The position numbers and the translations under genes were made by a program. A model generated the notes under the pieces. The model had not been told where the DNA came from. It was given only the letters and a program-made list of their open reading frames with translations, and made no database searches. Positions 9,546 through 45,733 of a DNA stretch of 64,000 nucleotides are shown piece after piece (position 1 is the first letter of the stretch; each line of letters begins with the position of its first letter). Origin of the DNA: a virus. Where the stretch lies: positions 117,161-181,160 of IMG/VR virus record IMGVR_UViG_3300050821_003907; one strand, 5' to 3'.

Positions 9546-9725
9546 CAGGCGAGTCTCCTATTTCTCGGCTACATTAACGATGAAGGTCTGCGTGTTGCGA
9601 AGCTTTACCTCAAACTGAAAGACATTTCCTACCTGTCCCAGGAAGTAAGTAGCCTTAACCACTGTCAATTGCTCAACCGCTGCTGCCATTACAGCGGCCA
9701 TGTCTCTTTCAGACCACTGAGCCAT

Positions 9726-10025
9726 CTATCCCCCGATTTGCTCTATGAGATGCTTGATTAGGGTGCGCGCTGACTCTGATGACGCAGTTTGATGGAGTAC
9801 GAAAGGCTGTTGCGGGCCTACCACAGAAGCGCACACTTCCCAGACACCACGTGTGACGTTCTCCCTGAAGAACAAGCGGGCAATGTGGTCTACGCCGATG
9901 AAACTACCGTCAAGTGCGGGGATGAACTTCATGACCGGGACAACGCTGTCCCGGTCATGAGTATTCCCTAGTGTCCTAGCGCGTGAGACGCCGGGCCCCA
10001 TCATAGCCGGATTTCTTTGCCCCAC
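9726..10025 (-). CDS. hypothetical protein
   Basis: Coupled ORF; start probably later than the track's start. Confidence 0.5.
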   Translation of the reverse strand: MGQRNPAMMGPGVSRARTLGNTHDRDSVVPVMKFIPALDGSFIGVDHIARLFFRENVTRGVWEVCASVVGPQQPFVLHQTASSESARTLIKHLIEQIGG

Positions 10026-10294
10026 TTAAGTTCCGCTAGGCGGAACTGAGATTGGGGCCACTCATTAGGGTGCACACGGTAAGGAACTATAGCTATGTGA
10101 TTTTCCTGCACAAGGTCATCCACGATGCCCCACGCATTGAAGTCTTCAGGAAAGAGCATAGGATAAGCCTCTACTGTGTCTTCAGCTAGACCACTCATTG
10201 CTCCCTCCTCGTATACAGGGGTGTTCTGAGCAACATAAATAACAACGGCACTCCGTCGTGCCAGTTGCAAAGTGTTTTCCCGAATGTCATCCAT
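10001..10294 (-). CDS. hypothetical protein
   Basis: GAGAGG RBS, overlapping run. Confidence 0.6.
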   Translation of the reverse strand: MDDIRENTLQLARRSAVVIYVAQNTPVYEEGAMSGLAEDTVEAYPMLFPEDFNAWGIVDDLVQENHIAIVPYRVHPNEWPQSQFRLAELKWGKEIRL

Positions 10295-10964
10295 GATTAG
10301 CCGCCTCTCGTTTAGCTGCGATTTCTTCTTGCAACATCAGCACCGTTTCCGTAAACTTGTCTAGGTCATCTACGACAAACCACTCCGAAACGCGCATCTT
10401 ATGCGGGAAAAGATTGGGTACACCTAGGAGCGCTAGGCTGCTCTGGATATAGGCTTCTTCGGCCTGAGAAGCACCCCGCATCATGAGTACGCTCTTCGCT
10501 CCCGTGAGCCGTTCAGGATAACCGTTGCGTTTAGCTACATCTCTAGCCGATGAAGGTGTATCACGCCAACGACCGGTTGAGTAGCCTACTTTAGCTACGC
10601 CTTGTTCGGGAAATACAATCACGTATACAACGGCACCTGAAGAGTCTTCTATGTCGATAGAGGAATCCCACATAGCATTGCCGACACCTGGTTGGCCTCC
10701 AGGCTTTCGTCGCCTAGTAACATCCCGGAGGCTTCCACAACTACGGATATTTCCGGACTTAAATTCTTTAGCGACTACTGTAAATGCCGATTTTAGGCCA
10801 TTACATTCCGGGCAATTACAGACAACTTCTACACAATTACGGGAAACTTCGCCCCGCGAAGTCATAACTACACCTTTAAAGGTGTCACTAGCAGCCTCTA
10901 GGTACCCGTCAGGCTGACGGGTACCTCGGCTAATTACTATCCGGTCGCCCTTGGCGTTACTCAC
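10287..10964 (-). CDS. GIY-YIG (T5orf172-like) endonuclease with N-terminal Cys module
   Basis: VVYVI...AKVGYS plus EWF; N-terminal VCNC.EC...KSGNIRSCG. Start tentatively the GTG at 10964. Confidence 0.65.
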   Translation of the reverse strand: MSNAKGDRIVISRGTRQPDGYLEAASDTFKGVVMTSRGEVSRNCVEVVCNCPECNGLKSAFTVVAKEFKSGNIRSCGSLRDVTRRRKPGGQPGVGNAMWDSSIDIEDSSGAVVYVIVFPEQGVAKVGYSTGRWRDTPSSARDVAKRNGYPERLTGAKSVLMMRGASQAEEAYIQSSLALLGVPNLFPHKMRVSEWFVVDDLDKFTETVLMLQEEIAAKREAANHG

Positions 10965-10999
10965 ACCACGAATAACGCCTGACTGACCGCCTGTATTCC

Positions 11000-11887
11000 T
11001 TAGTGACCTAGGACATGTGTGGCGGGTCCGCCGCCATAATTCAACCAAATTCCGAAGCCCAGCAGGAACGTGAGCACCGGGATGGCGATGAACAGCACGA
11101 CCTTCAGGACCTTGCTCTGGTTAGCCACGCGAAGCGCAGCTTCCTGCTGGTCGGTGTACTTGTCCTCAAGGTAGTCGTAACGGTGCCTGTAGTTCGGCGG
11201 GAACCACTTAGGCGGCGGGGACTTGCGGGCAAGTCGCTTCTCCGCTTGCATGGTCTGGAACGTGCCGAACACCGGAGCCAGAATTTTGTGGGCAGGAATA
11301 CCAGCGGCGATACCAATGATGGTTAGCTGCCACGAACCCTTGTTCACCCAGTCAGCAACCCACGGGTTACCGCTCTTGGTGCCCCAGTGCTCAGCGAACG
11401 CAAGCCCATGAGACAGCAGGACAATCATGACGGCAGCGACAGCAGCCGAAGCCAGGAACGCAAGGACAAGGTGTCCCAGCATCTGATGCCACTTAAGCTT
11501 CTTAACGTACTTGAAGCCCACCATGATGCCCAGCACGAGCAAAGTACCCAGGAAACCGATAAGCACATGTCGTGCGTCGTGCCGAGCAGTAACCCACCAC
11601 AACGGAGCCGACTGGCTGTGCAGCCCGAACGCCTGGTGTGCATGACCCAGGTACTTGTTGTGCAGGAGGTTCTGAACGTGAACAGGGAGACGGTCCCACG
11701 TGTCCTTCAGGCCGATGAAGGTAGTAGTAGTGTTACCATACTTAGTCTGGTACGCGACCTGCGTGACCAGGAAGTAGATGGCCGAGCCAATAGGCACAGC
11801 CACCTGCGACAGCAAGGCTCCCCACATCAGCAGCAAGCCACGGTCAGTGACCCTGAGCTTGTGCTTCTTCAGCAGTGCATCAGACAT
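11000..11887 (-). CDS. multi-pass membrane protein
   Basis: About 5-6 hydrophobic segments; AAGGAG RBS. Confidence 0.75.
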   Translation of the reverse strand: MSDALLKKHKLRVTDRGLLLMWGALLSQVAVPIGSAIYFLVTQVAYQTKYGNTTTTFIGLKDTWDRLPVHVQNLLHNKYLGHAHQAFGLHSQSAPLWWVTARHDARHVLIGFLGTLLVLGIMVGFKYVKKLKWHQMLGHLVLAFLASAAVAAVMIVLLSHGLAFAEHWGTKSGNPWVADWVNKGSWQLTIIGIAAGIPAHKILAPVFGTFQTMQAEKRLARKSPPPKWFPPNYRHRYDYLEDKYTDQQEAALRVANQSKVLKVVLFIAIPVLTFLLGFGIWLNYGGGPATHVLGH

Positions 11888-12042
11888 GCTAACTCCTTAC
11901 CAGATAATGTAACTACGTGAACCGAACCGAAAACACAGGCCGTAATTGTCTACGGAAAAAGAGATGCCGAATGCGTAATGGTTAAGCACCGACAACTGCA
12001 ATCGTTTGCGCCTAGCCCGCAGGTCACTGGCCAGTACTTTCA

Positions 12043-12471
12043 TTACCCCCTCACAATCTTGCTACCAGTAAGCGCAGCGAACCCTAGCACGTCAGCAGGA
12101 CTGACGCTAGCCGTAGAACAGGTCCAGCCGTCTAGCCGGATGCCGCCTTGCGCGTCAAGAGTGAATCCCTTGCCGGGGTAGCAGGTCCACTTAGTGCCGT
12201 CCAGGTCAGCCACGATATAAGGAGTACCCTGCGCATCAACCTTGATGACAGGACTCAGCCCGTCCGTGCGGAACACGGACATCAGGACACCGGGCTTTAC
12301 TGGCTTAGGCTGGGGGTGAACCTTCGGGTGCTGCTGGGTTGTCGTCTTCGTGGCCGTAGGGGTCGTCGTCGGAGAAGGAATCGAGTGATGCCAGCCAGGA
12401 ACGGAACAACCGGCCAAACACGCTATAGCTCCAATCGGGATGAGAGGATAGATGAGGTTACGCAGCTTCAT
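12043..12471 (-). CDS. lipoprotein with Pro/Thr-rich linker
   Basis: MKLRNL...IACLAG|C lipobox; start moved to 12471 (TAATG coupling). Confidence 0.7.
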   Translation of the reverse strand: MKLRNLIYPLIPIGAIACLAGCSVPGWHHSIPSPTTTPTATKTTTQQHPKVHPQPKPVKPGVLMSVFRTDGLSPVIKVDAQGTPYIVADLDGTKWTCYPGKGFTLDAQGGIRLDGWTCSTASVSPADVLGFAALTGSKIVRG

Positions 12472-12743
12472 TAAGACTCCTTCCAGGTGTAGTGTCCTTG
12501 CCTGTCGCACTTCCTGCACCTAACGAGTCCATACTTCAACCCGCTGAGGCAGTAGTCACATACGAACATGAACTTCACGTGACCGCACTCGCACTTGAAC
12601 ATCACCCGGCAGGAAGCAAATTCTCGGCAGTCAAGGTAAGCACGTTCATCGTCGTACATGATGGTTCGTTGCATTTGACATGGTGGTGCGCTGTCGAGGG
12701 ACGGAAGCTCAAGCCTCTCAACTTCAGCTATGCTTACGCTCAC
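12471..12743 (-). CDS. Cys-rich putative zinc-binding protein
   Basis: GGGGAGG RBS and GTG at 12743; CEC, CDYC, CRKC; resembles 19468..19734. Confidence 0.65.
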   Translation of the reverse strand: MSVSIAEVERLELPSLDSAPPCQMQRTIMYDDERAYLDCREFASCRVMFKCECGHVKFMFVCDYCLSGLKYGLVRCRKCDRQGHYTWKES

Positions 12744-12754
12744 GTATCCTCCCC

Positions 12755-15115
12755 TTAAGGCTTCATTCCACGGTGTCGTCGCAGGATTCGCTTGACCATC
12801 ATCAGGCACTGCAATGCGGTCAGCACAGCCAGGATTCGCCATCCTGTGAGGAGGGTGTAGTCCTGCCACGCACCGGGAAGGTGTTGCCATGCAGTGACGA
12901 TTCCGTAGATGAACCCAATGATGAGCAGCGAGAATCCGAAAATCTTAGGACCGAAGCCCATTGACTTACCGGATTCTGCCTTCTTCTGCGCAGCCCAGCC
13001 ATCACTGCCCGTGCCTGTAAGGACCTTGAACGTCGCAACGGTCATGGACGTTGCCCGGAAGATAAGGTAAAGCTCTACCGGAACCAGCGTTGCTGCTGAT
13101 ACGACATCCAGCGGAGTCCTGTTAGGCATGCGCATTGTCTGCCGTATGTTAAGCAAGATTGCCAACGCTGGCGGAATCAGCCAGTACCAGGACCAGTCGA
13201 ACTTGTGCACGGACAACGACGCGGTTAGCATGACGGCGAACATCAGGCGCATGAACCCGTTGAATAGCAGTCCCGCTACCTGAGTAGCCAGGGTTGCCGT
13301 CCACTTGTTCAGCCCCGATGTCATGATGAGACGCGCGATGCCCTGGTCCCACTTCTGGCGCTGTGCCCAGAGGGACTTGAGGTTGTGCATGGCACCGGGG
13401 TACGCACGCGCCTCAGGGTTAACCGTGGTCTTGTAGCCAAGCCCTCGCAGGTCACCGGTGAGCTGCATGTCCTCGACCTGGCTGGAGGTGTCCCACGGGA
13501 CGCCCATGCGCTTCTCTGCCACCTTCAGCAGCGCGCTGGCACGGAACAGGCTGAGCTGACCGCCAAGGACGTAGGTGTTGCGCTTGTTGTGCAATAGCGA
13601 GTCAGTCCAGTCACTGAACTCCACCCGCTGCATGCGGACAAGCATTCCCCCCTCTTGGTGGAACGTGTAGCGTGCCATGACGCCCCCGACGTTCCGGTCC
13701 TCGCGCAGTTCCGTCTCCAGGTGCTGCAACGCATCTGGCTCAAGAACGGTGTCAGCATCGACACCCGCAATGTACTCGAAGCCTTTGTGGTGGTGTTCCC
13801 ATCCCTGGTTAAGAGCGCCGGTCTTCTTGTCGCGGTTGCCGACAGTCTCCATCACAGTCGCGCCATACTGGCGTGCGATGCCAGCGGTGTTGTCCCCGCA
13901 GTTTCCTGTGAGGATTCCCCCGGAAAGTGTGAATTCGTGTTGTTCGGGAACAACGGCACAGCCTACGGTGAGGTAGGCTTCCGTGTCTCTAACATCAGTG
14001 ACCATCCATTTGATATTCTCTGCCTTCTTCAGAGAAGCGCGGTAGGCTGTAGTTTCTTTTCCGTCACTGTAGTTTCGCACGTAAGTTTCCTCCCATCGTC
14101 CTATCACCATTAGCCCACCGAAGGGAGCGTAATCTTCTAGCCAGTCAATGATGTCTGACCTCATCGACGCAGGGTGATTAGACCCGGTGCGCTTGTTCAC
14201 GTAACCATCGGCCGCTAGATACCCGTGAGTAAATCCTGCTGCGTAGTTAGCCGTAGGGCTGATTGGTAGGTCCTTAAGATTAGCGGTGTCCTTTACGTAT
14301 AGAGTTCCTCGGTACTGCGGCGTAGCTTCAGCTTGCGACTTCACTTGACGAACTTCTTCTTCAAAGAAATCCGCCATGCGAATCTTGTCTGCGTAAAAAG
14401 AGACTCGATAAGTACGGACATTGTCTAGGTTGTGGTAAGTCTGAGTACCGTCTCCAAAAATAAACCCATGTCGAACGCCTGCACGATAATCCTCACTAGC
14501 AGTGTCGGCTGACACATCGGTAGACGTGGGAATTACATCGCCCTTCGTGATGTCAGTAACAACACCTCTTTCGGTAATCCAGCGGTGGTCGGGCGTAACT
14601 CGCACTGTCCTACGATAAGTCGTACGAGAAGGTACTCGCCATCCTTGCTTTCCGTTACGATAAGTGACGGATTGCGCGGGACCTAGTTCGACTTCTTGAA
14701 TCCTCTGAACGCCGAACTTTTTAATTTCCGCCTTTTGCCACCCACTGCTTGTTAGGATTTCTTGAACCGTACCTGCGGTTTCCCGGAAAGACTTGATGCC
14801 TTCACGAGTAAGGTACCTTTCGTCCAGAGCGAAACAGTTGTCAGCAATGACTACGATGCGGTCTGGCGTTCGCGTCTGCCGCTTAAGTGCGGTGATGGTG
14901 ATGCCGATGGAATCCTGCTCGTCGTGAGCGGGAATCATCACCAGCACGCGGCCGGTCTTGACAGCCTTAACCGGGTCACGATAGCGAATCTTGTCTACCG
15001 CACGGGAGACTTCGCCTACTAGAATGCGGGCAGACTGCTTTAGCTTCTCAGCCGGGCGAAGCCGTGGCGCTCTGGCTGCCGGGGGCTGCCACAACATTAC
15101 ATCTGTCCCTGGCAT
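12755..15115 (-). CDS. processive GT2 glycosyltransferase (PgaC/IcaA-like polysaccharide synthase), intein-containing
   Basis: IPAHDE, VIADN|C, KTGALN, DADT (DxD), VEDMQL (TED-like), QRQKW (QxxRW-like), C-terminal TM helices. Confidence 0.92.
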   Translation of the reverse strand: MPGTDVMLWQPPAARAPRLRPAEKLKQSARILVGEVSRAVDKIRYRDPVKAVKTGRVLVMIPAHDEQDSIGITITALKRQTRTPDRIVVIADNCFALDERYLTREGIKSFRETAGTVQEILTSSGWQKAEIKKFGVQRIQEVELGPAQSVTYRNGKQGWRVPSRTTYRRTVRVTPDHRWITERGVVTDITKGDVIPTSTDVSADTASEDYRAGVRHGFIFGDGTQTYHNLDNVRTYRVSFYADKIRMADFFEEEVRQVKSQAEATPQYRGTLYVKDTANLKDLPISPTANYAAGFTHGYLAADGYVNKRTGSNHPASMRSDIIDWLEDYAPFGGLMVIGRWEETYVRNYSDGKETTAYRASLKKAENIKWMVTDVRDTEAYLTVGCAVVPEQHEFTLSGGILTGNCGDNTAGIARQYGATVMETVGNRDKKTGALNQGWEHHHKGFEYIAGVDADTVLEPDALQHLETELREDRNVGGVMARYTFHQEGGMLVRMQRVEFSDWTDSLLHNKRNTYVLGGQLSLFRASALLKVAEKRMGVPWDTSSQVEDMQLTGDLRGLGYKTTVNPEARAYPGAMHNLKSLWAQRQKWDQGIARLIMTSGLNKWTATLATQVAGLLFNGFMRLMFAVMLTASLSVHKFDWSWYWLIPPALAILLNIRQTMRMPNRTPLDVVSAATLVPVELYLIFRATSMTVATFKVLTGTGSDGWAAQKKAESGKSMGFGPKIFGFSLLIIGFIYGIVTAWQHLPGAWQDYTLLTGWRILAVLTALQCLMMVKRILRRHRGMKP
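13901..14836 (-). mobile_element. intein (312 aa) with LAGLIDADG homing endonuclease
   Basis: Starts C1 FALDERYLTREG, ends ...LTGN with C+1; HGFIFGDG and HGYLAADG motifs. Removing it restores GT2 ADNCGDNT. Confidence 0.92.
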
Positions 15116-20530: not shown

Positions 20531-20968
20531 TTACTTAGCGAAAGCCTTGCAGAACTGCTTGCCAGCAGCATCGCTCAGCGCGTTGTCGGAGTACACAGTA
20601 ACCGTGTAGCCCTTGGCCGAGGTAGCCGAGCATACCGACTTGTAAGCAGTCGGGATATCGGTTACCTGCGTGACCGTGACGTGCTTCTGGCGCGTGGCAG
20701 CCTTGGTCAGCTCGTGGCACTGGGAACTAGCCGTAAGGCCGTCTACGGTGCCGTGGAAGTCCAGGTAGGCGGTAATGCCCTTGGCGGTCAGGCTCACAGC
20801 ACAGTCAGCGGCGGGAACCGTCCCGCCAGCAACGCCCACGTTGCCTAGTGTGACCTTGTGCGCCGGGCTAGCGCTGTAGCCATTGTGCTTAGCAGGACCG
20901 CACGCAGTAAGCGAGATAGCCGCGATTCCCGCGACAACGAATCCACCGATGGCAATCTTGCGGTTCAC
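20531..20968 (-). CDS. lipoprotein
   Basis: MNRK + hydrophobic stretch + LTA|C lipobox. Confidence 0.75.
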   Translation of the reverse strand: MNRKIAIGGFVVAGIAAISLTACGPAKHNGYSASPAHKVTLGNVGVAGGTVPAADCAVSLTAKGITAYLDFHGTVDGLTASSQCHELTKAATRQKHVTVTQVTDIPTAYKSVCSATSAKGYTVTVYSDNALSDAAGKQFCKAFAK

Positions 20969-21184
20969 TTCTGTCCCCTAAGCTTGTTAAGGCGCTCAAT
21001 GCGCGCCGCTCTAATCTTGTCACGACGGTACTTAGTGTGCAGTACTGATATGTCGAGTCGGCCCAGTGCAAGGTGAAACAGGTAAATCTCGCTCCAGAAG
21101 CCGAGGTAAAACCAGCCCTTGTCAATCTTTACCGGTTTCATGTCCCCTCTCGAAGCGTTAACAACATGTTGCGCCGAGTTATTC

Positions 21185-23536: not shown

Positions 23537-24367
23537 TTAGGCGACACTCTTCCGGCGAGACTTAGGCTTGCTCTCGTTCTTGGCATCGATGGTCTGCTGG
23601 ATTGCAGTCATCATGTCGGTGAACGCAGCAACGCCCTGGTCCGGAACCGCCGCATCAGCAGTAACATGCGTGGGACCGTCCTGAATCTTGGCCATGACCA
23701 GCTTCTCAAGGCGCTCAGCACTTTCGTCCTTGTGCTGCGAGAAATCAAACTCGTCATCAGACAGAGTCTCGATAAGCTGGTCAGCCAGCGAGTTTTCCTT
23801 GTCCGAGAACGTAGCGCTGGGGGCCTCAAAATCTGGCCGCGTCACGTCATTGCCCCAATGGAGCTGGGACAGAACCAGGTAGCCCTCCGCGTCCGGCGAC
23901 AGGATGGCCAGGTGAACGCTGTCGCGCATCGCGAAGCGAAGCACCCCGACCTTTCCAGCGCGCTTCAGCGCGGCGTGCAGCAGGGCGTAGCCCTTGTCAC
24001 CGCCATCACCGGGCTTGACGTGATAGGACTTGTCGATAGCCTGAGCGGGAATGTCAGACGCCTTGGCGAACGTTACTATTTCCCCGCAGTGCCGCTCATC
24101 CCCCTTGATTTCCTCTAGTTCCGAGTCCGTGAGCAGGACGTTGCCACCGGGAATCTCGAAGCCACGCCCGATGTCCTCCCAGCGAACCTCGTTAAGGTCG
24201 CCCTTCTCCCGGTCAGCCTTGGCAACACGCACGTACTCGATACGAGAGCCGTCAGACTTCCGCAGCATGTGCAGGCCGCCGTTCTTGTTGCTCGGGACTA
24301 CAGAGCCAAGCCGGACGGGCAGGGAGAAGGGACCGAAGGAAAAAACACCCTTGAATGCGGTATGCAT
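23537..24367 (-). CDS. ku: Ku DNA-end-binding protein (NHEJ)
   Basis: FKGVFSFGPFSLPVRL...GSRIEYVRV...VRWEDIGRGFE...IDKSYHVKP...YALLHAAL...RFAMRD...LHWGNDV...F...KDES. Confidence 0.95.
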   Translation of the reverse strand: MHTAFKGVFSFGPFSLPVRLGSVVPSNKNGGLHMLRKSDGSRIEYVRVAKADREKGDLNEVRWEDIGRGFEIPGGNVLLTDSELEEIKGDERHCGEIVTFAKASDIPAQAIDKSYHVKPGDGGDKGYALLHAALKRAGKVGVLRFAMRDSVHLAILSPDAEGYLVLSQLHWGNDVTRPDFEAPSATFSDKENSLADQLIETLSDDEFDFSQHKDESAERLEKLVMAKIQDGPTHVTADAAVPDQGVAAFTDMMTAIQQTIDAKNESKPKSRRKSVA

Positions 24368-27332: not shown

Positions 27333-30204
27333 TCAGATGCCCTCGCGGCTCTCGTCCCAGCCGATGTCACTGTTAAGCAGGTTCACCACAGCCTTGGCGC
27401 GTGACTCATCCTCCAGGCGGATTACGAGCCGCTTGTCACCCTCCGGGGTGATGCCAACGACATCGTGAGAATCCGTCAGGGTACTGTAAGTGCACTCGTA
27501 GTGGGTGTAACCGTGCTCGCGTCCTAGTTCGCTCAAAGCAGCTAGTTCCTTAAGTTTGCCCATCACTGACCCCATCTGTAGTCCTCGTCCCTCATCCTTG
27601 TCAACAAGTGCCCCGCCCCGGTTATTCCCGCACCCAGTCTCGCGTGAACGCATCCAGCGGCTTCGGGACCGCGCAAGGGTCACTGAGTACCTGGTGGTAC
27701 CAGGCGGCGAGAGCTTTGAGCAGGAAATTACTCTTGGCGTTGTAATCCAGCTTGCGGTACCAGTCTTCGTCTTTAACTATGCTGTCGATACGGTTTTTGA
27801 AGTAATAGATAGAGTCTTCTGAAAATGATTCCAGTTGCTCTTCTATGAAGGTGCTCATCGCGCCCATTCCTCTACGAAATGCCGGATGTGAATCCGTGGT
27901 ACCTGACCTTCAGTCTTTTGCCTGTCCATGTCTTCGAACATGGCTTGCAGGGCCTTGTCCACTGCACGAAACTTAGCTTCGGGGTCCATGAGCACAAACC
28001 ATTCGTGCTTCTCAAGCACGGATTCGACTTTCGTTAGCAAGTGCCGGTTGAACGCCGTCTTCTCCATTACCCCATTCGATTCCGAAAGAAAGATTGTCCT
28101 TGTCAAACACAATTTCTGTGTCCTTAAGAACAGCGATGCCTGTCATCATTGCCTGACCGACTGCGATTACCGCAACGTCCCGGTTGAACTTCCGGGTTAG
28201 CAGGGTTACCGCGTAATCAAAGTTTCCGACGTGCATTTACCACTCCGGGTCTGGTGCGTTTTCACTCCACTGCTTACCGTCTGTGCCTTTCTTCAGCTCC
28301 TTGAGCAGCAGGCTTCCTAGTGCCGAGGCAACCTCGGTCTCCACGTCGTAAATCATGGAGCCGTCGTAAGCACGGTAAGCGAATTCCGTGCCGTTAATAG
28401 TCAGGTTGTAGCCGCTATAGCCGTCGCCAGAAATACCAAGGATGATACTGAACGTGCGTGCCACTATTCTCCCTCGTACTCACTATTAGGGGAAACGTTT
28501 ACCTGGAAAACGCTCTCGTCAAATTCACGACCGAAACTATTCGGGTTCGAAGGAAAGCCAACCAGCACTCTCCCTGGCAAGTCGGGTGTAGCCATGCGAG
28601 TCGCTATCTTAAAAAGCCAAGCGAGTCCTTGAAGGTCCAGCAGAATATCGCCTGGTTGGATAACAGCGCCAGTCACGTCACGAGCTATAAGGCGAGGTGT
28701 GTACGCCATTACTCTCCTAACCTAGTTCTACAGTAACCTTAAGCACCCGGTATTCCTGGTCAGTAATGAACTCATTCCACTGCCAGGTTTTCTTGAATGC
28801 CTCGTCGCGCTTGTCTTCGGGGAAACGCGCATAGCCAATAGGTCGCCATGCTTGCCCGTACTCTTTAGCGCGACACTGAATGACGTAGAAGACTTCCCCC
28901 GGCTCTCCGGAGATGCAGTACTCAGGAGTTGCCATCATTTCCCCTCTAGCGAACTACCTCTAGGCAGCAATCAGGAACGCATGTCTCCTGGTCGTGGAAT
29001 ATAATCCACCAGCTTGCGCCTGAACCGCTTGTCCTAATGAGCTCATAAACGTGGTCAGTAGTTGTTTCCCAGTAGCGAGCGTACATCTCACGAAACCTGA
29101 CCTTCGTCCGCAGGTAATCCTCCATTGTCCCTCTTAGCGTAGTCGCGCTCTATACTGCCAATGCAATCGTAAAAGCGCTTGTACAAAGGCTCAAGTCCCG
29201 GATTAAGGCGTGACCACCTGTTTAGCTGGTTGATGCAGTCACGCAGTTCATGGAGGGGAGTCAGCTCGCCTTTGAGCTGTTCCCCGTGACCATATGACAT
29301 CTACTTGCTTTTCTTCTTGTTGTAGCGCTTGTAAGCGAACTTAAGGGCAAGGAACGCCAAGCGCAGTGCCAGGATTCGCATTTCCTTCAGGTCCTCATCT
29401 TCGTCTTTACGAGCCAGGAACATGATTAGTGGTCGCTTCCCTGAAGCTTGTTCTCGTTGGCCAGTGACGGGTGCTGGTGCGGCTCGAAGCCGAACGCGCG
29501 ACCGTGATGCCCGCAAAGGCTCAGTGAGCCACCCTCCGGGAGCTTGTCCGTGGGAGGCAGGCAGACCTCAATGAGAGCCACAACAGCAGGACCGCAGCCG
29601 TCGCAAGTGTGGTCGGTAACCGTGTCAAGCATGGTGAAAACCGGTTGGGTGGTGACTTCCGGCTTCTCGGCGGGCAGGTCAAGAGTGGTAACTTCAGTCA
29701 TCATGGTCTCCTGTCTGGGTACTGCTGTTGTCGCTAGTTTACCGCGTGTTACGTGTACAGAACGCTCTTAAGGCCGTTTTCCAGCTTGAGCAGGGTGTCC
29801 TTAGTGCCATCGGCCACCAGGGCGGCAATCAGAGGAACTACTGTGCGATTTCGGTGCAGGGCAGTCTTGAGCCGGAAAGCCTCCTCTTCAGTGAGGACGA
29901 TTGTGATTGTCTTCTGTGTCTTTGCGCCGATTTCCATTTATCCTCCTAGTTGGTGAGCGCCCTCTTCAATGAGAGCCATTACCATTGTCGAAGCATTCGT
30001 TTCCCGGTACTCACCTAGTAGCCATCGCTTGAGCATTCCCTCGCTCGTACGCTCAGGGTCATACGGTGCCAGGTCGTAAAAGCGAATAATGAAAATAGCC
30101 AGCACTTCTGCTGTGCTCTCAGCCTCTGGCCCCTTGCATGAATTCACCTGCTCTTGCGCAACCTGAAAAGAATCTACCAGATAACGGTTACGGTGGAACG
30201 TCAC
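27333..30204 (-). other. run of ~12 small hypothetical CDS (e.g. 27622-27867, 27855-28112, 28012-28236, 28237-28464, 28464-28709, 28717-28938, 29088-29300, 29749-29937, 29938-30204)
   Basis: Co-oriented, tightly packed, RBS present. Confidence 0.6.
29426..29704 (-). CDS. small CxxC...CGHH zinc-binding protein
   Basis: TCDGC...LSLCGHH; GGAG RBS. Confidence 0.6.
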   Translation of the reverse strand: MMTEVTTLDLPAEKPEVTTQPVFTMLDTVTDHTCDGCGPAVVALIEVCLPPTDKLPEGGSLSLCGHHGRAFGFEPHQHPSLANENKLQGSDH

Positions 30205-30662
30205 AGCGTGTCCCCTTCACCCAGAAGTGCCGTCAGGCCCTCGTCAAGGTTCAGGTACTCCAGTTCCTCGCCAGCGGGCACTAGCTTGTAGATGTCGTTG
30301 ATGAAAGCGTCAACTAGCTTCTCGTTCATGACGAACTGGGCAACGCCGTAAGGCGAAGTTAGCGTCATGGAAATGAGCTTTCCTGCACCAGTCAGCGAGA
30401 ACAGTGCGCTCTTGTCCTGAATCAGGCCAGCCGGTGATATCTTAACGTCCCCATCACCACTGGGCTTAGTCAGGCCGTCCCTGAGCAGGTCACGCGAGAA
30501 CGTCCACACGACAGGGCCATCCATACCGGTGTTGAAAGTGACTTCCACGGCATGGGGGTCGGCAGTGGTGTAAACGAAATGCGCGCTGAGGACAACAGCA
30601 GCCTCATTCATGAGGAGGCGAACAGGAACATCCTTGCGCACGACCACAGGACTACTCATCAT
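30201..30662 (-). CDS. ssgB: SsgA-like protein (SsgB-type sporulation septation regulator)
   Basis: YTTADPHAVEVTFNTG...VWTFSRDLLRDGL..PSGDGDV...LTSPYG.A...VPAGEE...LDEGL follows the SsgB pattern over its full length. Confidence 0.92.
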   Translation of the reverse strand: MMSSPVVVRKDVPVRLLMNEAAVVLSAHFVYTTADPHAVEVTFNTGMDGPVVWTFSRDLLRDGLTKPSGDGDVKISPAGLIQDKSALFSLTGAGKLISMTLTSPYGVAQFVMNEKLVDAFINDIYKLVPAGEELEYLNLDEGLTALLGEGDTL

Positions 30663-30990
30663 AAGTTTCCTCTTCTCCTAGTTCCGGCGAGCTACCCGAC
30701 AGTGAAAGGATAAGCTTCCGGAATTCCCAGGGGGTGATTCCTGCCTCTTGCAGGCAAGCCTCGGGGACTACCGCGTTCACCAGCTCAGCAAAGCCAAGCC
30801 ATGTCATCGCGAACAACCCGCCCTCTGAGAAGTCCAGGTGAACGCGAGTAGCGGTTGTTCCCACGGCAAGCTCAACATTCGGGCAGCGTGAAGTAGCGCG
30901 GTTGTTCTTCCTGCTTAGCTTTCGTGTTCCCTTAATTATTACCATCGCGTCTTCCGCTCTCACGACTCTCTGCAACCAGGATTGACGCAC
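30652..30990 (-). CDS. hypothetical protein
   Basis: Overlaps the ssgB start; exact start uncertain. Confidence 0.5.
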   Translation of the reverse strand: MRQSWLQRVVRAEDAMVIIKGTRKLSRKNNRATSRCPNVELAVGTTATRVHLDFSEGGLFAMTWLGFAELVNAVVPEACLQEAGITPWEFRKLILSLSGSSPELGEEETYDE

Positions 30991-31095
30991 GAATGCGCGC
31001 TATGCGCTCGAAGTCACTACGCTCATTAGCGGACATCTTGGCCATGCGCTCTTCCAGCGTTCCGAGCTTGGCGTTAAGGTACTCGCGTAGTGTCA

Positions 31096-31530
31096 TTACC
31101 TAACCTCATTATCACAGTCGTACCAGGGTGGGTCAGGTTGCAGCAAGCGAAGGTTTGCGTTTACCTTGGCCAGTTCCAGTTCAGCATTCTTGATGTCGTC
31201 GTTAAGCTTGTCCAGCCTTTCATTCTTGCGAGCAGCCTTGCGCTCAGCGCGCGGCATTGGCTTGGTGTTGAACCAGCGTCCTAGTCCGGTGCCGATAATG
31301 GTGTTCTTGATGCCAAGAACCGCGAGTGTAGGAGGTGCGCATATCGGCCACGTAAGCGCGAAAAGCGCAACGGGAATCCATGCCTCCTCAAGGTCAGCTA
31401 GGTCCTCCATGCAGTAATCGCCGTTAATAAACCACCAGCCGACACGCTTAACTGAAACACCAGCACCGACGATGTACGCGACAACAGAGAATACCCACCA
31501 GAAGATTGTAAGCGTCACACCCTGCTCCAT
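31096..31530 (-). CDS. membrane protein with C-terminal coiled coil
   Basis: Two TM segments, then a heptad region. Confidence 0.65.
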   Translation of the reverse strand: MEQGVTLTIFWWVFSVVAYIVGAGVSVKRVGWWFINGDYCMEDLADLEEAWIPVALFALTWPICAPPTLAVLGIKNTIIGTGLGRWFNTKPMPRAERKAARKNERLDKLNDDIKNAELELAKVNANLRLLQPDPPWYDCDNEVR

Positions 31531-31715
31531 TCTTGAATAGGCTCAATGGTCACCAGGAACTTGCCGCCATCAACGGTCTGGAGAATGAGCTTGTGACTGT
31601 TGCCCGTAACGAAATTTTGTCCCGGATGCGCATCGCGAATGCGAGAGAACCTATGGTCAGACGACAGGGCGTGCTTGATGTTATTACTTATGTTCTTAAC
31701 GCTCCATGCAGTCAT
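31515..31715 (-). CDS. hypothetical protein
   Basis: ATGA overlap. Confidence 0.55.
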   Translation of the reverse strand: MTAWSVKNISNNIKHALSSDHRFSRIRDAHPGQNFVTGNSHKLILQTVDGGKFLVTIEPIQEWSRV

Positions 31716-32254
31716 TCGCTTACCCTCCTGCCGTTAGGTGCATGCTTGTTAGCATTTTGCTCGGCTTGAGTGGCCCAGCGAACATTACCCGGTTCGTAGT
31801 TACCGTTGTTGTCCAGGCGGTCTAGTGTATGACCTTTAGGTCTAGGCCCTAGATTAGCCTCTAGCCACGTTACGAACGCTAGCGCATCTTCACGCCATTC
31901 CTCACACACCTGAATACCGCGTCCGCCATAGTGCTTATAGTTGTGCGCACCGACATCGTAACAACGCCTGCGCATGTTAAGCCATGTTTTGTAGAGAGGA
32001 TGCTTACTGCTAAGCCCATGTGCTTCACCGAAGCCTTTGAAGCTGAGAAGTTCCCCGTCCACATAATCTTCTTTCCAGCAACCGCAACTCTTAGAGTGCC
32101 CGTTATTTAGCTGGAAAGCTAGAATGTCGCGTTCAGTTCCGCATTTACACCTACACGGTACCCAGCGGCGGAAGTGCCCCCGCTTATCAGGGAGCGTGTA
32201 ACTATCACCGATGACAGTCCATCTATTGAACTCATCACCAATAAGCGGGGGCAT
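31712..32254 (-). CDS. HNH homing endonuclease
   Basis: CRCKCG...SKSCGC, then YKTWLNMRRRC...YGGRGIQVCEEW...TLDRLDNNGNYEPGNVRWAT. Confidence 0.9.
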   Translation of the reverse strand: MPPLIGDEFNRWTVIGDSYTLPDKRGHFRRWVPCRCKCGTERDILAFQLNNGHSKSCGCWKEDYVDGELLSFKGFGEAHGLSSKHPLYKTWLNMRRRCYDVGAHNYKHYGGRGIQVCEEWREDALAFVTWLEANLGPRPKGHTLDRLDNNGNYEPGNVRWATQAEQNANKHAPNGRRVSE

Positions 32255-32271: not shown

Positions 32272-32862
32272 TCAGGTACCGGGGCAGCCGTCTGCTTGCC
32301 AAGCGCCACCACCGGAGTTGGCGTAAATCTGGCCCGCAACCTGCTCCTGCTGAGCAAGGCTGTCACCCGAAACGTTATACCCACTCGCCGGGATGATGCC
32401 GAACACGTTACCGCCAGCGGCGGGGTTAGTGCCGTTCGTGGACTCGCGGTAGGCGATGCAGTTCGCCATGGACGAGGACATGCCGGGGATGTTGTAGCCA
32501 CCCGAGCCACCGCTAGAGCTACCGCCAGACGACGAGCCGTCGCTAGGCGCGGGAGCGCTGCTCTGGGAGCTGCCCGATGAGGACGAGTCTCCCGAGACGA
32601 TGGCCGACGAATCACCGGAGGTGTCCGTGCTCACCGACGACGGGGACGGGGAAGACTCAGCAGGCGCGCTAGCGCTGCCACCGCCTGAAAGGTTAATCGA
32701 CTCGCCGATGTAAATGAGATTGGGATTGCCAATCTGAGGATTGGCCGCTTCGAGCTGGCTCAGCGAGACGCCGTTGCTAGCAGCGATGCCGCTTAGCGTG
32801 TTGCCCGACTGAGTCGTGTAGACAGAAGCAGCAAGTGCGAGTGCATGAAACATGAAAAGCAT
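32272..32862 (-). CDS. rpf: LysM + resuscitation-promoting factor (Rpf)-like muralytic protein
   Basis: YTTQSGNTLSGIA...LEAANPQIGNPNLIYIGESI (LysM); Ser/Gly linker; CIAYRES...FGI...LAQQEQVAGQIYANSGGGAW...C. Confidence 0.85.
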   Translation of the reverse strand: MLFMFHALALAASVYTTQSGNTLSGIAASNGVSLSQLEAANPQIGNPNLIYIGESINLSGGGSASAPAESSPSPSSVSTDTSGDSSAIVSGDSSSSGSSQSSAPAPSDGSSSGGSSSGGSGGYNIPGMSSSMANCIAYRESTNGTNPAAGGNVFGIIPASGYNVSGDSLAQQEQVAGQIYANSGGGAWQADGCPGT

Positions 32863-32951: not shown

Positions 32952-33233
32952 TTACAGCACGCGCCGGTAGGCGGCAAGATTCGAAAGGGCTTTATCTAGG
33001 CGTGGGACAGCCGTGTGTATTTCCCGCATTGCCTCGTTCAGGATGTTTTCCATTCGCTGAATGTCGTCAGCAGTAGTGTTGCGGATGCCGAAAGCAATCT
33101 CTTCTAGCGCTTCGCAGGCTTGCGCGATAACGAAATTAGCTTTGCTAGTGTGCTCACTAGCCTCATCGAGAGGGTTATAAGCTTCCATTCCCAGCCGGAT
33201 TTGCTCTTTCCAGTTATCATTCATTTCAGTCAT
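32952..33233 (-). CDS. hypothetical helical protein
   Basis: Overlaps the RNA ligase stop. Confidence 0.6.
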   Translation of the reverse strand: MTEMNDNWKEQIRLGMEAYNPLDEASEHTSKANFVIAQACEALEEIAFGIRNTTADDIQRMENILNEAMREIHTAVPRLDKALSNLAAYRRVL

Positions 33234-33921
33234 TTCGTTGCGCCTTTACAGGTACGTCGCGAGTCTTCAGCTTCATCACAAGGCGCTCACCGCCGCGCGT
33301 GAAGAGCGGAACAGCAGGCGTGCCCACTACTCCCTCAATCACAACGCCGCGCTTGTGCCAGTACGACAGGAACGTGCCGCTCTTGATGGCTTCCCACGCT
33401 TCTACCGGAGAATATATCCAGTAAATTTCGGGAACCAGGCCGATTTCGAAGTAACGCGCTACGTCCTTAACGTCTTCAGGGGTGAGCCACCACTTACCGA
33501 CGCGCACGTCGAACAGGATGAAGCTAACGTTATCCCGGTACAAGCCACCGCCCTTCTGAATTCGTGGCCCGTAGCCCTCACCGTAAAGCGTGACAGACGG
33601 CTTCTCGCCGTCAGTGAACAGGAATTTCTTCTCCCACTTACTGGCGTCAAGCAGGCCCAGGTTGCGGATTGCTTCTGTCAGGTGCGCGGGCATCTGCGCG
33701 TTGTCGGTTCGTCCACCGAGAACTACGCTCTCGCCGTTCCAGTAAAGACGGGTGTTCGTGCCGTCAATTTTCTCTGTCCAGCGCCAGGGGCGGTCCTTCA
33801 GGTACGCGAATTCCGGCAGGGACCAGTCCCATTCAATGATGGGGTTGTTCTTGGCGTCGGTGTCCCGCTTGAACGCTGTGTGGATTTTGTGGTATGGAGG
33901 ACCAAAGGGCGAATCCGTCAT
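33226..33921 (-). CDS. ATP-dependent RNA ligase (Rnl2-like)
   Basis: Motif I EKIDGTN, III LYGEGYG, IIIa FILFDV, IV EGVV, V KLKT. Confidence 0.88.
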   Translation of the reverse strand: MTDSPFGPPYHKIHTAFKRDTDAKNNPIIEWDWSLPEFAYLKDRPWRWTEKIDGTNTRLYWNGESVVLGGRTDNAQMPAHLTEAIRNLGLLDASKWEKKFLFTDGEKPSVTLYGEGYGPRIQKGGGLYRDNVSFILFDVRVGKWWLTPEDVKDVARYFEIGLVPEIYWIYSPVEAWEAIKSGTFLSYWHKRGVVIEGVVGTPAVPLFTRGGERLVMKLKTRDVPVKAQRND

Positions 33922-43396: not shown

Positions 43397-45733
43397 CTAG
43401 AACAGCTCACCCTCAAAGACACCGCTGGCATCCTCAAAGTCCGACATCTCCTGAGAGCTATCGTGCCGTTCGATGAACTCTGCAAACGACATTAGCTCGT
43501 CACTGGTCAACCACTCACGGCGTAGCCGACGACGTTCCTCGCCCTGAACCTCCCGCTTGGTCTCTACCTTCTCTTCCTCCAGTACGACCTTCTCCAGTTC
43601 TGCCAGGTCCGGGTAGGTCTCCCGGTTCTCCAGCAGCCACGCGCGGAACGCCGACCAGTCCCAGCCACCAGCGGCAACGGCCTTAGCCGTGAGCTGACGA
43701 GTGTACTCGACGCTAGCCGCGACGAACCCAACGCGCGCCTTGAACAGGCTAGCCGAGGTAGTAGACGCGAAGATTCGCACCTCCAGGGTACGGCGGTTGC
43801 ACGTGTTGATGGCTGAGTAACGACTGGCTGTCGTGTCGTCAGACTCAAGGTCCGCACGACTACGGTAGCGCTCACCACGCGACTCACGCTCAGCACGAAC
43901 ACGCTGTTTCATCTGGTTAAGCGCGTGCGCCTTTTGCGTCTCACGGTGCCCCTCACGGAATCCCGCCCACTGGTCAGAACTACGACCGGCGATTCGCTCG
44001 GCATGCGCCTGGTTACGGTAGACGAACTTCATCCACCTGAACAGGTGAGCCTCACTGGAGAAACCGTCACGGCTGACGTGAACGTGAATGCCGTTCTCAC
44101 GCTCGCTAACCGACGCGCCCTCTTCCGTAAGCTTCTCGACAATATCGAACGGGAATTCCGCCATTGCCCACGCCCATGTCATGGGGTGAGTGTTCAGCTC
44201 GAATCCCGCGACACTGCCGTCGCTCTTGGGGTAGATAAGTTCCTCGTTCCTCCCAAGGTCCTTAATGACGTCCATCTCTTCAGGAGAGCAATCGGATGTC
44301 ATCTCGACTTCGATGCCGTAGAAGGTGCTCGGCTGAGGGTCATCACTCGCCTTGTAAAAGACGGGCGACGGCTTGTAGTCCCACGAGTGCAGCCCGGCAG
44401 AGTCGGAAGAGTCGTCGTAACGGCTATCGCCGTAACGGTCTGTCCCGTCCTCATCATAGCCATCTGAGTCGTAACCATCAACGTCGAAACCCTCGTCGTT
44501 GTAGCCGTCGCGGTTATAGCCCTCATCGTCGTAGCCAGAGGAGTTGTAGCCATCCTCATCGTAACCCTCGTAATTGAATCCGTACGGGTCGTAACCGTTG
44601 TCGTCGTAACCGATGCCCTCATCGAGGCTATTCCCGTCGTACACCCCTTGGGTGTCAACGAGAGTGAAGTCCCAGCGGTAACGACTGGCACGGCAGTTGA
44701 TGACCAGGACCAGGCCATCGCGCAAGTGCATCAGGGCGCGACCAGAACGCGCGTTCTGGCGCGCCTCTTCCTGCACGCGGGAAAGAATGGCGTAGCCATA
44801 CGTGCCCGCACCATAGAAAGCACGGTCGTACCAGTGACAGATTTGGTCCGCGCGCTCCCCGGTGATGATGTACTGACTGCCCTCCGGGATTACCACGTCA
44901 GGCGGGTCAGGCACAACCGGGCTTTCCTCGCTGGCGGATGACGCAAGCCGCAATCCGCGCTCTTGCCAGCGCGCAAGGTGGTGGTCATGCACAACGCCGT
45001 CACCGTTGCGGACGGTGACAACGGTGCGGTTCTCGTAATCATAGCTAGAAGGGCAACGGTTGCACGCCGTGATTGACTCGATGACCAGCGGCGGCGTGCC
45101 GTAGTAACGATTGTAGCGGTCGTTAACGGTAACGACATCACCAACAACGGGTTCGTAAGGCATTGGTGTCTCCTGTACCTGGTCCGATTCGAGAAAGTCG
45201 CCGAATGATACGCGCGTTCGCGGCTCATGGCCGCGCTCTGATTCTGGCTCAAATGCTATTCGCGTCACGGGCTCGTCAACCACTTGGTAACCGTAGTCAG
45301 TGAGCAGCGTTCGCCAGTACTCTTGGCTAACCTGGCGGTCCACCGGACTAGTCTCGTGCGATTCGAAATGCACCACACCGTGGGCTTCGTCACCAGCCGG
45401 GTAAAGAACGCTGCTACTGGTGCGCGTGACCGTGAACGGCCCGCGACCGTAAGCGGACATAGAGGCAAGCCGGAATTGCATGCCCGATAGCGGACGTTGC
45501 GGAACGTCCGCAGGGCGGAGACCGTAACAGCGCCAGTAATGGAGCTGGTCGCTGAATTCCTCAACCTCACCCGCAGAGTTTCGCCCGCGCAAGGTAACGC
45601 GGACCTGCTCAGGATTAGCAGGGCGCATGCCAACGCTCGTGACGGTGGCGACGCCATTAGGCACGAAACCGGGGCTAACCTCTACCAGGTCACCCACAAC
45701 AGGGGTGTAGGAATTATCACTAACGCGGGGCAT
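43397..45733 (-). CDS. putative amidoligase (COOH-NH2 ligase, GS/GCS-like) with N-terminal repeats
   Basis: FYGIEVEM, KSDGSV.GFELNTHP, GIHVHVS, RYSAIN, TLEVRIF. Confidence 0.88.
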   Translation of the reverse strand: MPRVSDNSYTPVVGDLVEVSPGFVPNGVATVTSVGMRPANPEQVRVTLRGRNSAGEVEEFSDQLHYWRCYGLRPADVPQRPLSGMQFRLASMSAYGRGPFTVTRTSSSVLYPAGDEAHGVVHFESHETSPVDRQVSQEYWRTLLTDYGYQVVDEPVTRIAFEPESERGHEPRTRVSFGDFLESDQVQETPMPYEPVVGDVVTVNDRYNRYYGTPPLVIESITACNRCPSSYDYENRTVVTVRNGDGVVHDHHLARWQERGLRLASSASEESPVVPDPPDVVIPEGSQYIITGERADQICHWYDRAFYGAGTYGYAILSRVQEEARQNARSGRALMHLRDGLVLVINCRASRYRWDFTLVDTQGVYDGNSLDEGIGYDDNGYDPYGFNYEGYDEDGYNSSGYDDEGYNRDGYNDEGFDVDGYDSDGYDEDGTDRYGDSRYDDSSDSAGLHSWDYKPSPVFYKASDDPQPSTFYGIEVEMTSDCSPEEMDVIKDLGRNEELIYPKSDGSVAGFELNTHPMTWAWAMAEFPFDIVEKLTEEGASVSERENGIHVHVSRDGFSSEAHLFRWMKFVYRNQAHAERIAGRSSDQWAGFREGHRETQKAHALNQMKQRVRAERESRGERYRSRADLESDDTTASRYSAINTCNRRTLEVRIFASTTSASLFKARVGFVAASVEYTRQLTAKAVAAGGWDWSAFRAWLLENRETYPDLAELEKVVLEEEKVETKREVQGEERRRLRREWLTSDELMSFAEFIERHDSSQEMSDFEDASGVFEGELF
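44411..44645 (-). repeat. acidic pentapeptide repeat G-[YF]-[DN]-x-[DE] (~12 units) inside the amidoligase
   Basis: GYDDN GYDPY GFNYE GYDED GYNSS GYDDE GYNRD GYNDE GFDVD GYDSD GYDED GTDRY. Confidence 0.9.

What the first reader, a model, noticed from the sequence alone, without database searches (positions are those of the whole stretch)
30201..30662. Phage SsgB-like sporulation/cell-division regulator
Seen: full-length match to the SALP pattern, closest to SsgB. Established: SsgA/SsgB recruit FtsZ to sporulation septa and are confined to morphologically complex actinomycetes. Inference: the phage alters septation, either to compartmentalise infected hyphae, block or hijack sporulation, or ride in spores. 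It also constrains the host range.
Basis: partly seen in the sequence, partly recalled or inferred. Interest (0 to 1): 0.7.

Follow-up and report, generated by a model that had tools for sequence, protein, structure and literature searches.

The report
Phage-encoded SsgB-type septation protein
A large uncultured soil phage of actinomycetes carries an intact, selected copy of the SsgA/SsgB protein family that filamentous actinomycetes use to place division septa; such phage genes are already known from Streptomyces phages and their function has never been tested.

Summary
Window 30201-30662 (minus strand) encodes a 153-aa SsgA-like protein (SALP): Pfam SsgA 87 bits against a cut-off of 25, E 4e-20 to the Thermobifida fusca SsgB crystal structure, and a confident model (pLDDT 90.5) that superposes on SsgB structures (TM 0.86-0.91). 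The carrier is a phage: a 181-kb, about 98% complete virus record with terminase, portal, capsid, tape measure and 34 tRNAs.

The gene is not a stray. Four related uncultured phages keep it at the same place (43-83% identity). dN/dS against the closest is 0.10, and its GC matches the phage.

It is of the archetypal SsgB/SsgG type, not SsgA or SsgD, but it is not a close relative of Streptomyces SsgB.

Phage SALPs are already on record. Streptomyces phage Dagobah has an annotated one (Hardy et al. 2020), BillNye has one in UniProt, and Stanwilliamsviridae phages have unannotated ones. This scan has also noted them before on at least eight other genomes.

Function is untested. My best guess is mimicry of host SsgB that disturbs FtsZ septum placement, probably to stop infected hyphae escaping into spores. 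No integrase was found, which weakens the "ride in spores" idea.

Verdict: a new member of a known kind, of moderate to low interest.

The parts
30201..30662 (-). SALP gene, 153 aa. SsgB-type SsgA-like protein, acidic (pI 4.5).
   Evidence: Pfam PF04686 87 bits. PDB 3CM1 and 6SLC at E 4e-20 and 8e-18. Model pLDDT 90.5 and TM 0.86-0.91 to SsgB structures. dN/dS 0.10 against the 83%-identical orthologue in L002. pI.
30667..30679 (-). Purine-rich ribosome-binding tract AGGAGAAGAGGAA, ending 4 nt before the ATG at 30662.
   Evidence: Read directly from the sequence.
30652..30990 (-). Upstream small gene (up to 112 aa, no family match). Its stop overlaps the SALP start by 11 nt. It is conserved next to the SALP in the related phages.
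   Evidence: ORF list. Overlap read. Orthologues at 81%, 44% and 41% identity directly upstream of the SALP in L002, L010 and L012. No Pfam or NCBIfam hit.
29938..30204 (-). Downstream small gene (88 aa, no family match). Its GTG start overlaps the SALP stop (GTGA), which suggests translational coupling.
   Evidence: Orthologues at 64%, 33% and 39% identity downstream of the SALP in L002, L010 and L012. No family hit.
30932..31096 (-). 54-aa gene of the conserved block.
   Evidence: Conserved in the same order in L002, L010 and L012 at 59-70% identity.
31096..31530 (-). 144-aa protein of the conserved block. It has two hydrophobic stretches in the N-terminal half and a charged, heptad-like C-terminal tail (read from the sequence). 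It has no family match and is present in two copies in L002.
   Evidence: Translation. Orthologues in L002 (72% and 41%), L010 (38%) and L012 (40%). No Pfam or NCBIfam hit. The protein atlas gave only weak viral hypothetical proteins.
32272..32862 (-). LysM wall-binding protein with a C-terminal 'transglycosylase'-type PHROG domain. It is kept 1.6-1.8 kb upstream of the SALP in all four relatives.
   Evidence: Pfam LysM E 4e-10. PHROG 4602 transglycosylase E 2e-14. Weak full-length match to the aggregation-promoting factor model, 40 bits, below cut-off. Synteny.

Best explanation
The gene makes a small, acidic, correctly folded SsgB-type SALP during infection of an actinomycete that itself uses SALPs.

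The most likely mode of action is mimicry. The phage protein enters the host pathway in which SsgA and SsgB mark the membrane sites where FtsZ assembles for sporulation-type septa, and it misdirects or titrates one of the partners (FtsZ, SsgA, host SsgB or their membrane anchor). The net effect I favour is that infected hyphae cannot complete sporulation septation, and so cannot escape into phage-refractory spores. The opposite sign, forcing extra cross-walls, is possible.

Shown here: family membership, fold, retention of the family's core residues, phage carriage, conserved position, and purifying selection.

Inferred: every step about partners and phenotype.
For: Membership and integrity:
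- establish family and fold.
- All family-invariant or functionally mapped residues of S. coelicolor SsgB are kept: P34, V37, W51, R55, L57, V115, G118 and E120. They correspond to P36, V39, W53, R57, L59, V128, G131 and E133 here (residue roles from PMC8061694).

Selection and retention:
- dN/dS is 0.10 at dS about 1.0 against the closest phage.
- The gene is present at the same place in four diverged relatives, which form a clade: 99/85 support for four of the five sequences and 98/38 with the fifth.
- Gene GC is 56% against 55% for the genome.

The target must be a host protein:
- The phage has no tubulin/FtsZ, FtsK or ParB of its own.

Why a phage would care:
- Sporulation and aerial development contain phage spread in Streptomyces, and early infection represses developmental genes (Luthe et al. 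2023, PMC10117723).
- Phage infection triggers early sporulation, read by the authors as a host escape (Kronheim et al. 2023, PMC10276819).

What the family does:
- SsgB recruits FtsZ, and SALPs set the sites of division or wall change (PMC4255298; PMC8061694).

Against nucleic-acid binding:
- The protein is acidic, with pI 4.5 and net charge about -9.
Against: - There are no experimental data for any phage SALP.
- The FtsZ- and SsgA-binding surfaces of SsgB are not mapped, so conservation of a binding surface could not be checked.
- The host is unidentified, so it is not shown that the host has SALPs.
- The direction of the effect (block or induce septation) is a guess.
- The phage clade evolves fast (43-83% identity), whereas cellular SsgB is nearly invariant within Streptomyces. 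This may mean it has drifted to another partner.
- The conserved neighbours are wall-associated or membrane proteins, which fits the wall-remodelling rival equally well.
Confidence: 0.45

Rival explanations
1. The SALP directs wall remodelling and does not act on FtsZ. Like SsgA, SsgD, SsgE and SsgF, which mark sites of wall synthesis or autolysis, it positions or activates peptidoglycan or glycan enzymes. The candidates are the phage's own LysM protein and ricin-GH5 glycanase. The purpose would be lysis, hyphal-tip or branch remodelling, or altering the surface against superinfection.
For: - The LysM 'transglycosylase' protein is kept 1.6-1.8 kb upstream of the SALP in all relatives.
- In contig L013 the order is LysM, ricin-GH5, SALP, directly adjacent.
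- The window also carries the ricin-GH5 gene and a GT2 glycosyltransferase.
Against: - The adjacency is seen in only one short contig. In the window the GH5 gene lies about 14 kb away.
- The protein scores nearest the SsgB/SsgG type and not the wall-linked SsgD (45 bits, NCBIfam SsgD cut-off not met).
- No physical link between SALPs and hydrolases is documented in the texts read here.
Confidence: 0.25
2. It promotes septation. The phage SALP acts as an active SsgA/SsgB analogue that walls off the infected compartment of a multinucleoid hypha. This would keep turgor and resources until lysis, or fragment the mycelium to spread infected units.
For: - The core residues are intact, so it could be an active recruiter and not a decoy.
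- Established knowledge holds that raised SsgA stimulates septum formation (van Wezel et al. 2000, as cited in PMC7650747) and contributes to mycelial morphology in submerged culture (PMC11302927).
Against: - Nothing in the sequence tells an activator from an inhibitor.
- Extra septa would also shrink the resource pool available to each infection.
Confidence: 0.2
3. It is a passenger with no role for the phage: a recent capture, host contamination, or an assembly chimera.
For: SALP genes are small and could be picked up by chance. The nearest cellular homologues are only 36-46% identical, so no donor can be named.
Against: - dN/dS is 0.10.
- The gene is conserved at one position in five diverged phage contigs from independent samples.
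- Its GC matches the phage and not a high-GC host.
- It overlaps both neighbouring genes, as in a coupled operon.
Confidence: 0.03

Closest known systems
SsgB of Thermobifida fusca (PDB 3CM1) and of Streptomyces coelicolor (PDB 6SLC/6SUJ), the FtsZ-recruiting archetypal SALP
   Same: - Same single-domain size and the same fold: TM 0.86-0.91, E about 1e-13.
- 32-34% identity over nearly the full length.
- The same invariant residues, including the R55/V115/G118/E120 network that fixes helix alpha-3.
   Different: - It is carried by a phage.
- Its loop is about 10 residues longer: 25 residues between P77 and S103, against a mode of 14 in cellular SALPs. The loop has low model confidence.
- It has His at the Y35 position. 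Y35H gives a non-sporulating S. coelicolor, but His occurs in 4 of 146 cellular SALPs and the sister phage has Tyr.
- It evolves fast, whereas SsgB is almost invariant within Streptomyces.
- It does not branch with Streptomyces SsgB.
SsgA-family protein of Streptomyces phage Dagobah (MT711977.1, CDS 20593-21057, QMP84409.1), noted by Hardy et al. 2020 (PMC7650747)
   Same: It is a phage-encoded SALP of about 154 aa, lying in a leftward array of small non-structural genes. It is annotated as an SsgA-family regulator, and its function is untested.
   Different: - It gives only 44 bits and 32% identity over 115 residues to this protein, less than cellular SsgB gives (84 bits).
- Dagobah is a 47-kb phage of S. 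coelicolor, while this is a 181-kb uncultured phage with no close cultured relative.
SALP-like 'hypothetical proteins' of Stanwilliamsviridae Streptomyces phages (Sham gp205, Gilson gp212, BillNye, Circinus and others)
   Same: - They are carried by large phages (about 127-130 kb) of actinomycetes with GC far below their hosts.
- The SALP lies a few kb downstream of an RNA ligase gene, as it does here (RNA ligase at 33226-33921).
   Different: - They are shorter (123-125 aa) and very divergent: 32-36 bits to this protein.
- They form a separate branch in the tree.
- They are flanked by Lsr2, which this phage lacks.

Membership tests
SALP (SsgA-like protein) family, Pfam PF04686 | Match to the SsgA domain model above the curated gathering score | tested here: met
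   87.2 bits against a cut-off of 25, profile positions 2-98 of 98. The own-genome search gave 83 bits.
SALP (SsgA-like protein) family, Pfam PF04686 | Small single-domain protein of about 130-150 aa with no other domain | tested here: met
   153 aa, with SsgA as the only Pfam family. Alignments to SsgB span residues 3-149.
SALP (SsgA-like protein) family, Pfam PF04686 | SsgB ('whirly'-like) alpha+beta fold | tested here: met
   The model has pLDDT 90.5 and pTM 0.83. The top eight Foldseek PDB hits are all SsgB chains, with TMt 0.83-0.91. This is a prediction, not a solved structure.
SALP (SsgA-like protein) family, Pfam PF04686 | Family-invariant residues (S. coelicolor SsgB numbering: P34, W51, R55; near-invariant Y29, D33, V37, L57, V115, G118, E120) | tested here: met
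   All are present in this protein. Only the Y35 position differs, being His.
SALP (SsgA-like protein) family, Pfam PF04686 | Occurrence in actinomycetes that use SALPs (here: the host) | not testable with these tools
   The host is unknown. The terminase is nearest to Arthrobacter, Rhodococcus and Mycobacterium phage terminases at about 33% identity. All near SALP homologues with a name are from Actinomycetota.
SALP (SsgA-like protein) family, Pfam PF04686 | Interaction with FtsZ, SsgA or the membrane anchor, and an effect on septation | not testable with these tools
   Needs experiments or complex modelling.
SsgB orthologue group | Branches with SsgB and not with the Streptomyces-specific paralogues (SsgA, D, E, G) | tested here: inconclusive
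   - The careful tree puts the phage clade in an 86/81 group with T. fusca-type SALPs. It lies outside the 90/88 group that holds Streptomyces SsgA, SsgD and the putative SsgE and SsgG.
- Streptomyces SsgB itself sits in the unresolved backbone.
- Scores against paralogues: putative SsgG 72-76, SsgB 67-68, SsgA 57, SsgD 45.
- The SsgG and SsgE labels rest on chromosome position only. SsgA is confirmed by the upstream IclR gene and SsgD by NCBIfam.
SsgB orthologue group | Very slow evolution (near-invariant within a genus) | tested here: not met
   The five phage sequences are only 39-83% identical to each other.
SsgD (NCBIfam NF052496, equivalog) | Score above the curated cut-off of 185 bits | tested here: not met
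   77.3 bits. True Streptomyces SsgD scores 211-228 bits.

The most novel reading that the evidence does not exclude
The SALP is the core of a conserved phage 'development-sabotage' block: a LysM wall protein, a membrane protein with a coiled-coil-like tail, three small proteins and the SALP. The membrane protein would anchor the phage SALP, as SepG anchors SsgB. The complex would hijack or disable the host's septum-placement machinery, countering sporulation as an anti-phage containment strategy. That would make it the first viral counter-measure against developmental immunity in multicellular bacteria.
Probability: 0.2. Interest if true: 0.7.

Novelty: new member of a known kind. Interest (0 to 1): 0.35.

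Why it matters
Sporulation and aerial development are now seen as a layer of antiviral defence in Streptomyces (PMC10117723). Phages of these bacteria carry several host-like developmental regulators (WhiB, Lsr2, SsgA-like), and the roles of the SsgA-like ones remain untested.

This locus adds a well-conserved, clearly selected SALP lineage in very large soil phages. It comes with orthologues at several divergence levels and a fixed gene neighbourhood, which makes it good material for a first functional test of a phage SALP.

It does not open a new category. The gene class is already annotated in cultured phages, was mentioned in a 2020 paper, and this scan has met it repeatedly.

Tried and rejected
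1. The word-indexed homologue search found only the protein itself and one 83% relative. The exhaustive HMMER search was needed and gave 1684 hits.
2. A megablast of 24 kb of the window against cultured phages found nothing. There is no close cultured relative.
3. The IMG/VR scan with the single protein found nothing. With an alignment it found six further viral contigs carrying divergent SALPs.
4. The genome-contig scan with alignment A1 failed because it had no conserved stretch. I used a Streptomycetaceae SsgB representative instead to obtain labelled Streptomyces genomes.
5. I expected the tree to show several independent phage acquisitions. The viral SALPs do fall in three or four places. 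However, the AU test does not reject a single viral clade (p = 0.37), so I do not make that claim.
6. The idea that the His at the Y35 position marks a built-in dominant-negative was dropped. His occurs in 4 of 146 cellular SALPs and the sister phage has Tyr.
7. The idea that the SALP serves a phage tubulin/FtsZ was dropped, because the genome has none.
8. A nucleic-acid-binding role suggested by the 'whirly'-type fold is disfavoured by the pI of 4.5.
9. The promoter and terminator scan around the gene was no better than shuffled sequence.
10. The flanking small proteins and the 144-aa membrane protein have no Pfam, NCBIfam or protein-atlas assignment.
11. Cluster look-ups of the nearest cellular SALPs gave few names (Streptosporangiaceae, Motilibacteraceae, 'Actinomycetales' MAGs), too scattered to name a donor or a host.
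Full report
**Observation**

Window 30201-30662 on the minus strand is an open frame of 153 codons. It starts at ATG 30662, six bases downstream of a GAGG core within a purine-rich tract, AGGAGAAGAGGAA, at 30667-30679. Its first 11 bases overlap the end of the upstream gene. Its stop overlaps the GTG start of the downstream gene (GTGA), the layout of a translationally coupled array.

The product matches Pfam SsgA (PF04686) at E 7e-25 and 87 bits against a gathering score of 25, over the whole profile. It matches two solved SsgB proteins: T. fusca 3CM1 at E 4e-20, and S. coelicolor 6SLC at E 8e-18. An AlphaFold2 model built on 83 homologues has mean pLDDT 90.5. Its only strong Foldseek hits in the PDB are these SsgB chains, with target-normalised TM 0.83-0.91.

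**The carrier is a phage**

The window is the last 64 kb of a 181,160-bp virus record estimated 98% complete. Elsewhere the genome encodes terminase large subunit, portal, head protease, HK97-type major capsid protein, tape measure, primase and DNA polymerase, plus 34 tRNA genes.

It has no close cultured relative. Megablast against cultured phages found nothing. The terminase is about 33% identical to those of Arthrobacter, Rhodococcus, Mycobacterium and Gordonia phages, so an actinobacterial host is likely but no genus can be named.

The window is a long leftward arm of mostly small genes, with RNA ligase, a DUF3631 protein, a LysM protein, an HNH endonuclease, a GT2 and a ricin-GH5.

**The gene is kept and selected**

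The exhaustive HMMER search gave 1684 family members. The four best all lie on phage-like contigs that are syntenic with this arm:
- P0002, 83% identical, on a 163.5-kb contig;
- P0003, 49%, on a 76.8-kb contig;
- P0004, 47%, on a 52-kb contig;
- P0005, 43%, on a 4.4-kb contig (identities from the pairwise alignments).

Three of the four relatives (L002, L010, L012) keep one block in the same order: LysM protein, a 66-aa gene, a 144-aa membrane-like protein, a 54-aa gene, a gene of about 90 aa, the SALP, then an 88-aa gene. A Ku gene lies farther on. On the 4.4-kb contig the order is LysM, ricin-GH5, SALP.

Against the closest orthologue, dS is about 1.0 and dN/dS is 0.10. Gene GC is 56% against 55% for the genome. 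This excludes contamination or a recent passive capture.

**Which SALP?**

I labelled the paralogues of two complete Streptomyces genomes, which have six SALPs each:
- SsgB, by near-identity to the 6SLC sequence;
- SsgD, by the NCBIfam equivalog model;
- SsgA, by the upstream co-oriented IclR gene, which is the ssgR arrangement;
- SsgG and SsgE, by chromosome position only. These two labels are from memory and are tentative.

The phage protein scores 72-76 bits against the putative SsgG, 67-68 against SsgB, 57 against SsgA and 44-45 against SsgD. It fails the SsgD cut-off, at 77 bits against 185.

In a careful maximum-likelihood tree of 86 rows, four of the five phage sequences form a starred clade (99/85), and the fifth joins them at 98/38. 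This clade sits in a moderately supported group (86/81) with uncultured cellular SALPs. That group includes the T. fusca-SsgB-like set and a Streptosporangiaceae MAG protein. It lies apart from the group holding Streptomyces SsgA, SsgD and the putative SsgE and SsgG (90/88). Streptomyces SsgB lies in the unresolved backbone.

SsgB is the only SALP with orthologues outside Streptomycetaceae (PMC4255298). So 'SsgB-type' is a fair description, but 'SsgB orthologue' is not shown. The fast evolution of the phage clade is also unlike SsgB.

**Sequence details**

All invariant or functionally mapped positions are kept. These include R55, V115, G118 and E120 (S. coelicolor numbering), the network that holds helix alpha-3. 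Substitutions there misplace septa (PMC8061694).

One position stands out. The Tyr whose change to His gives a non-sporulating S. coelicolor is His here. But the sister phage has Tyr, the other three have Cys, Leu and Tyr, and 4 of 146 cellular SALPs have His. I give it no weight.

Four of the five phage proteins have a loop of 22-25 residues between P77 and S103, where most cellular SALPs have 14. It is the least confident part of the model.

The protein is acidic, with pI 4.5. This argues against the nucleic-acid binding that the 'whirly'-like fold might suggest.

**What is already known**

- Hardy et al. 2020 reported an ssgA homologue in Streptomyces phage Dagobah (PMC7650747). The GenBank record annotates it as an SsgA-family regulator. 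It is more distant from this protein (44 bits) than cellular SsgB is (84 bits).
- tblastn and the viral structure library show divergent SALPs in the large Stanwilliamsviridae Streptomyces phages: Sham, Patelgo, Moab, Faust, Gilson, Circinus, BillNye and TunaTartare, and also in Streptomyces phage Ibantik. In the GenBank records I looked at they are labelled hypothetical; BillNye's is named SsgA family in UniProt.
- Six further IMG/VR contigs carry SALPs.
- This scan has noted phage SALPs on at least eight other genomes. Two follow-ups reached the same verdict: known kind, function untested.
- The viral SALPs fall in three or four places in my trees, but a single viral clade is not rejected (AU p = 0.37). 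The number of acquisitions stays open.

**Mechanism**

I found no experiment on a phage SALP in the literature searched. The phage has no tubulin/FtsZ, FtsK, ParB, WhiB or Lsr2, so the partner should be a host protein. It has no detectable integrase, so it is probably virulent.

Host development and sporulation limit phage spread, and infection represses developmental genes early (PMC10117723; PMC10276819). Given this, my best-supported reading is that the phage SALP mimics host SsgB and disturbs FtsZ placement, most plausibly preventing sporulation septation in infected hyphae (confidence 0.45 for interference with the septum-placement pathway; the sign is uncertain).

Two rivals remain:
- Targeting of wall-remodelling enzymes. 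This is supported by the conserved LysM neighbour and the LysM-GH5-SALP adjacency in one contig.
- Active induction of cross-walls.

A functionless passenger is very unlikely.

**Verdict**

The locus is a real, well-conserved, new lineage of an already known kind of phage gene. It is useful material for a first functional test, but not a surprise in itself.

Noticed in passing
window 31712-32254 (-): An HNH homing-type endonuclease (PHROG 374, E 3e-51) sits between the LysM gene and the SALP block. It is also present in the relative L012 but absent at that place from L002 and L010, as expected of a mobile insertion.
   Followed up: partly
window 32272-32862 (-): This LysM protein has a hydrophobic N-terminus and a C-terminal domain that PHROGs calls 'transglycosylase'. 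It gives a weak full-length match to the aggregation-promoting-factor model (40 bits, below cut-off). It is conserved upstream of the SALP in all relatives.
   Followed up: partly
window 23537-24367 (-): This 276-aa protein is the counterpart of genes that carry Pfam Ku (PF02735) in the relatives L002, L010 and L012. It is conserved at 66-90% identity in those relatives, which is better than the SALP.
   Followed up: no
L113 2941-3312 (Sham gp205) and L115 1426-1803 (Gilson gp212): Stanwilliamsviridae Streptomyces phages carry SALP-like genes of about 124 aa annotated 'hypothetical protein'. They lie between an RNA ligase and an Lsr2-like gene. This is an annotation gap in cultured phages.
   Followed up: partly
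L015 7797-8381 (+) and 11308-11733 (-): One 100-kb IMG/VR contig appears to carry two SALP-like ORFs about 3 kb apart. The second is weak, at 24 bits.
   Followed up: no
L114 (MT838510.1) 4502-4936: A 5-kb 'UNVERIFIED Bacteriophage sp.' record from human faecal samples has 70% GC and encodes a SALP (37% identity). It is probably an actinomycete chromosomal or contaminant fragment and not a gut phage.
   Followed up: partly
G000 9332-14058 (locus L004): An array of 34 tRNA genes covers most amino acids. This is typical of large lower-GC phages of high-GC hosts.
   Followed up: no
L002 8638-9120 and 9123-9569: The 144-aa membrane-like protein next to the SALP block is duplicated in tandem in the 163-kb relative, at 72% and 41% identity to the window copy.
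   Followed up: no
window 43397-45733 (-): A 778-aa protein has a C-terminal amidoligase_2 domain (Pfam E 5e-6) and a large N-terminal part with no assignment.
   Followed up: no
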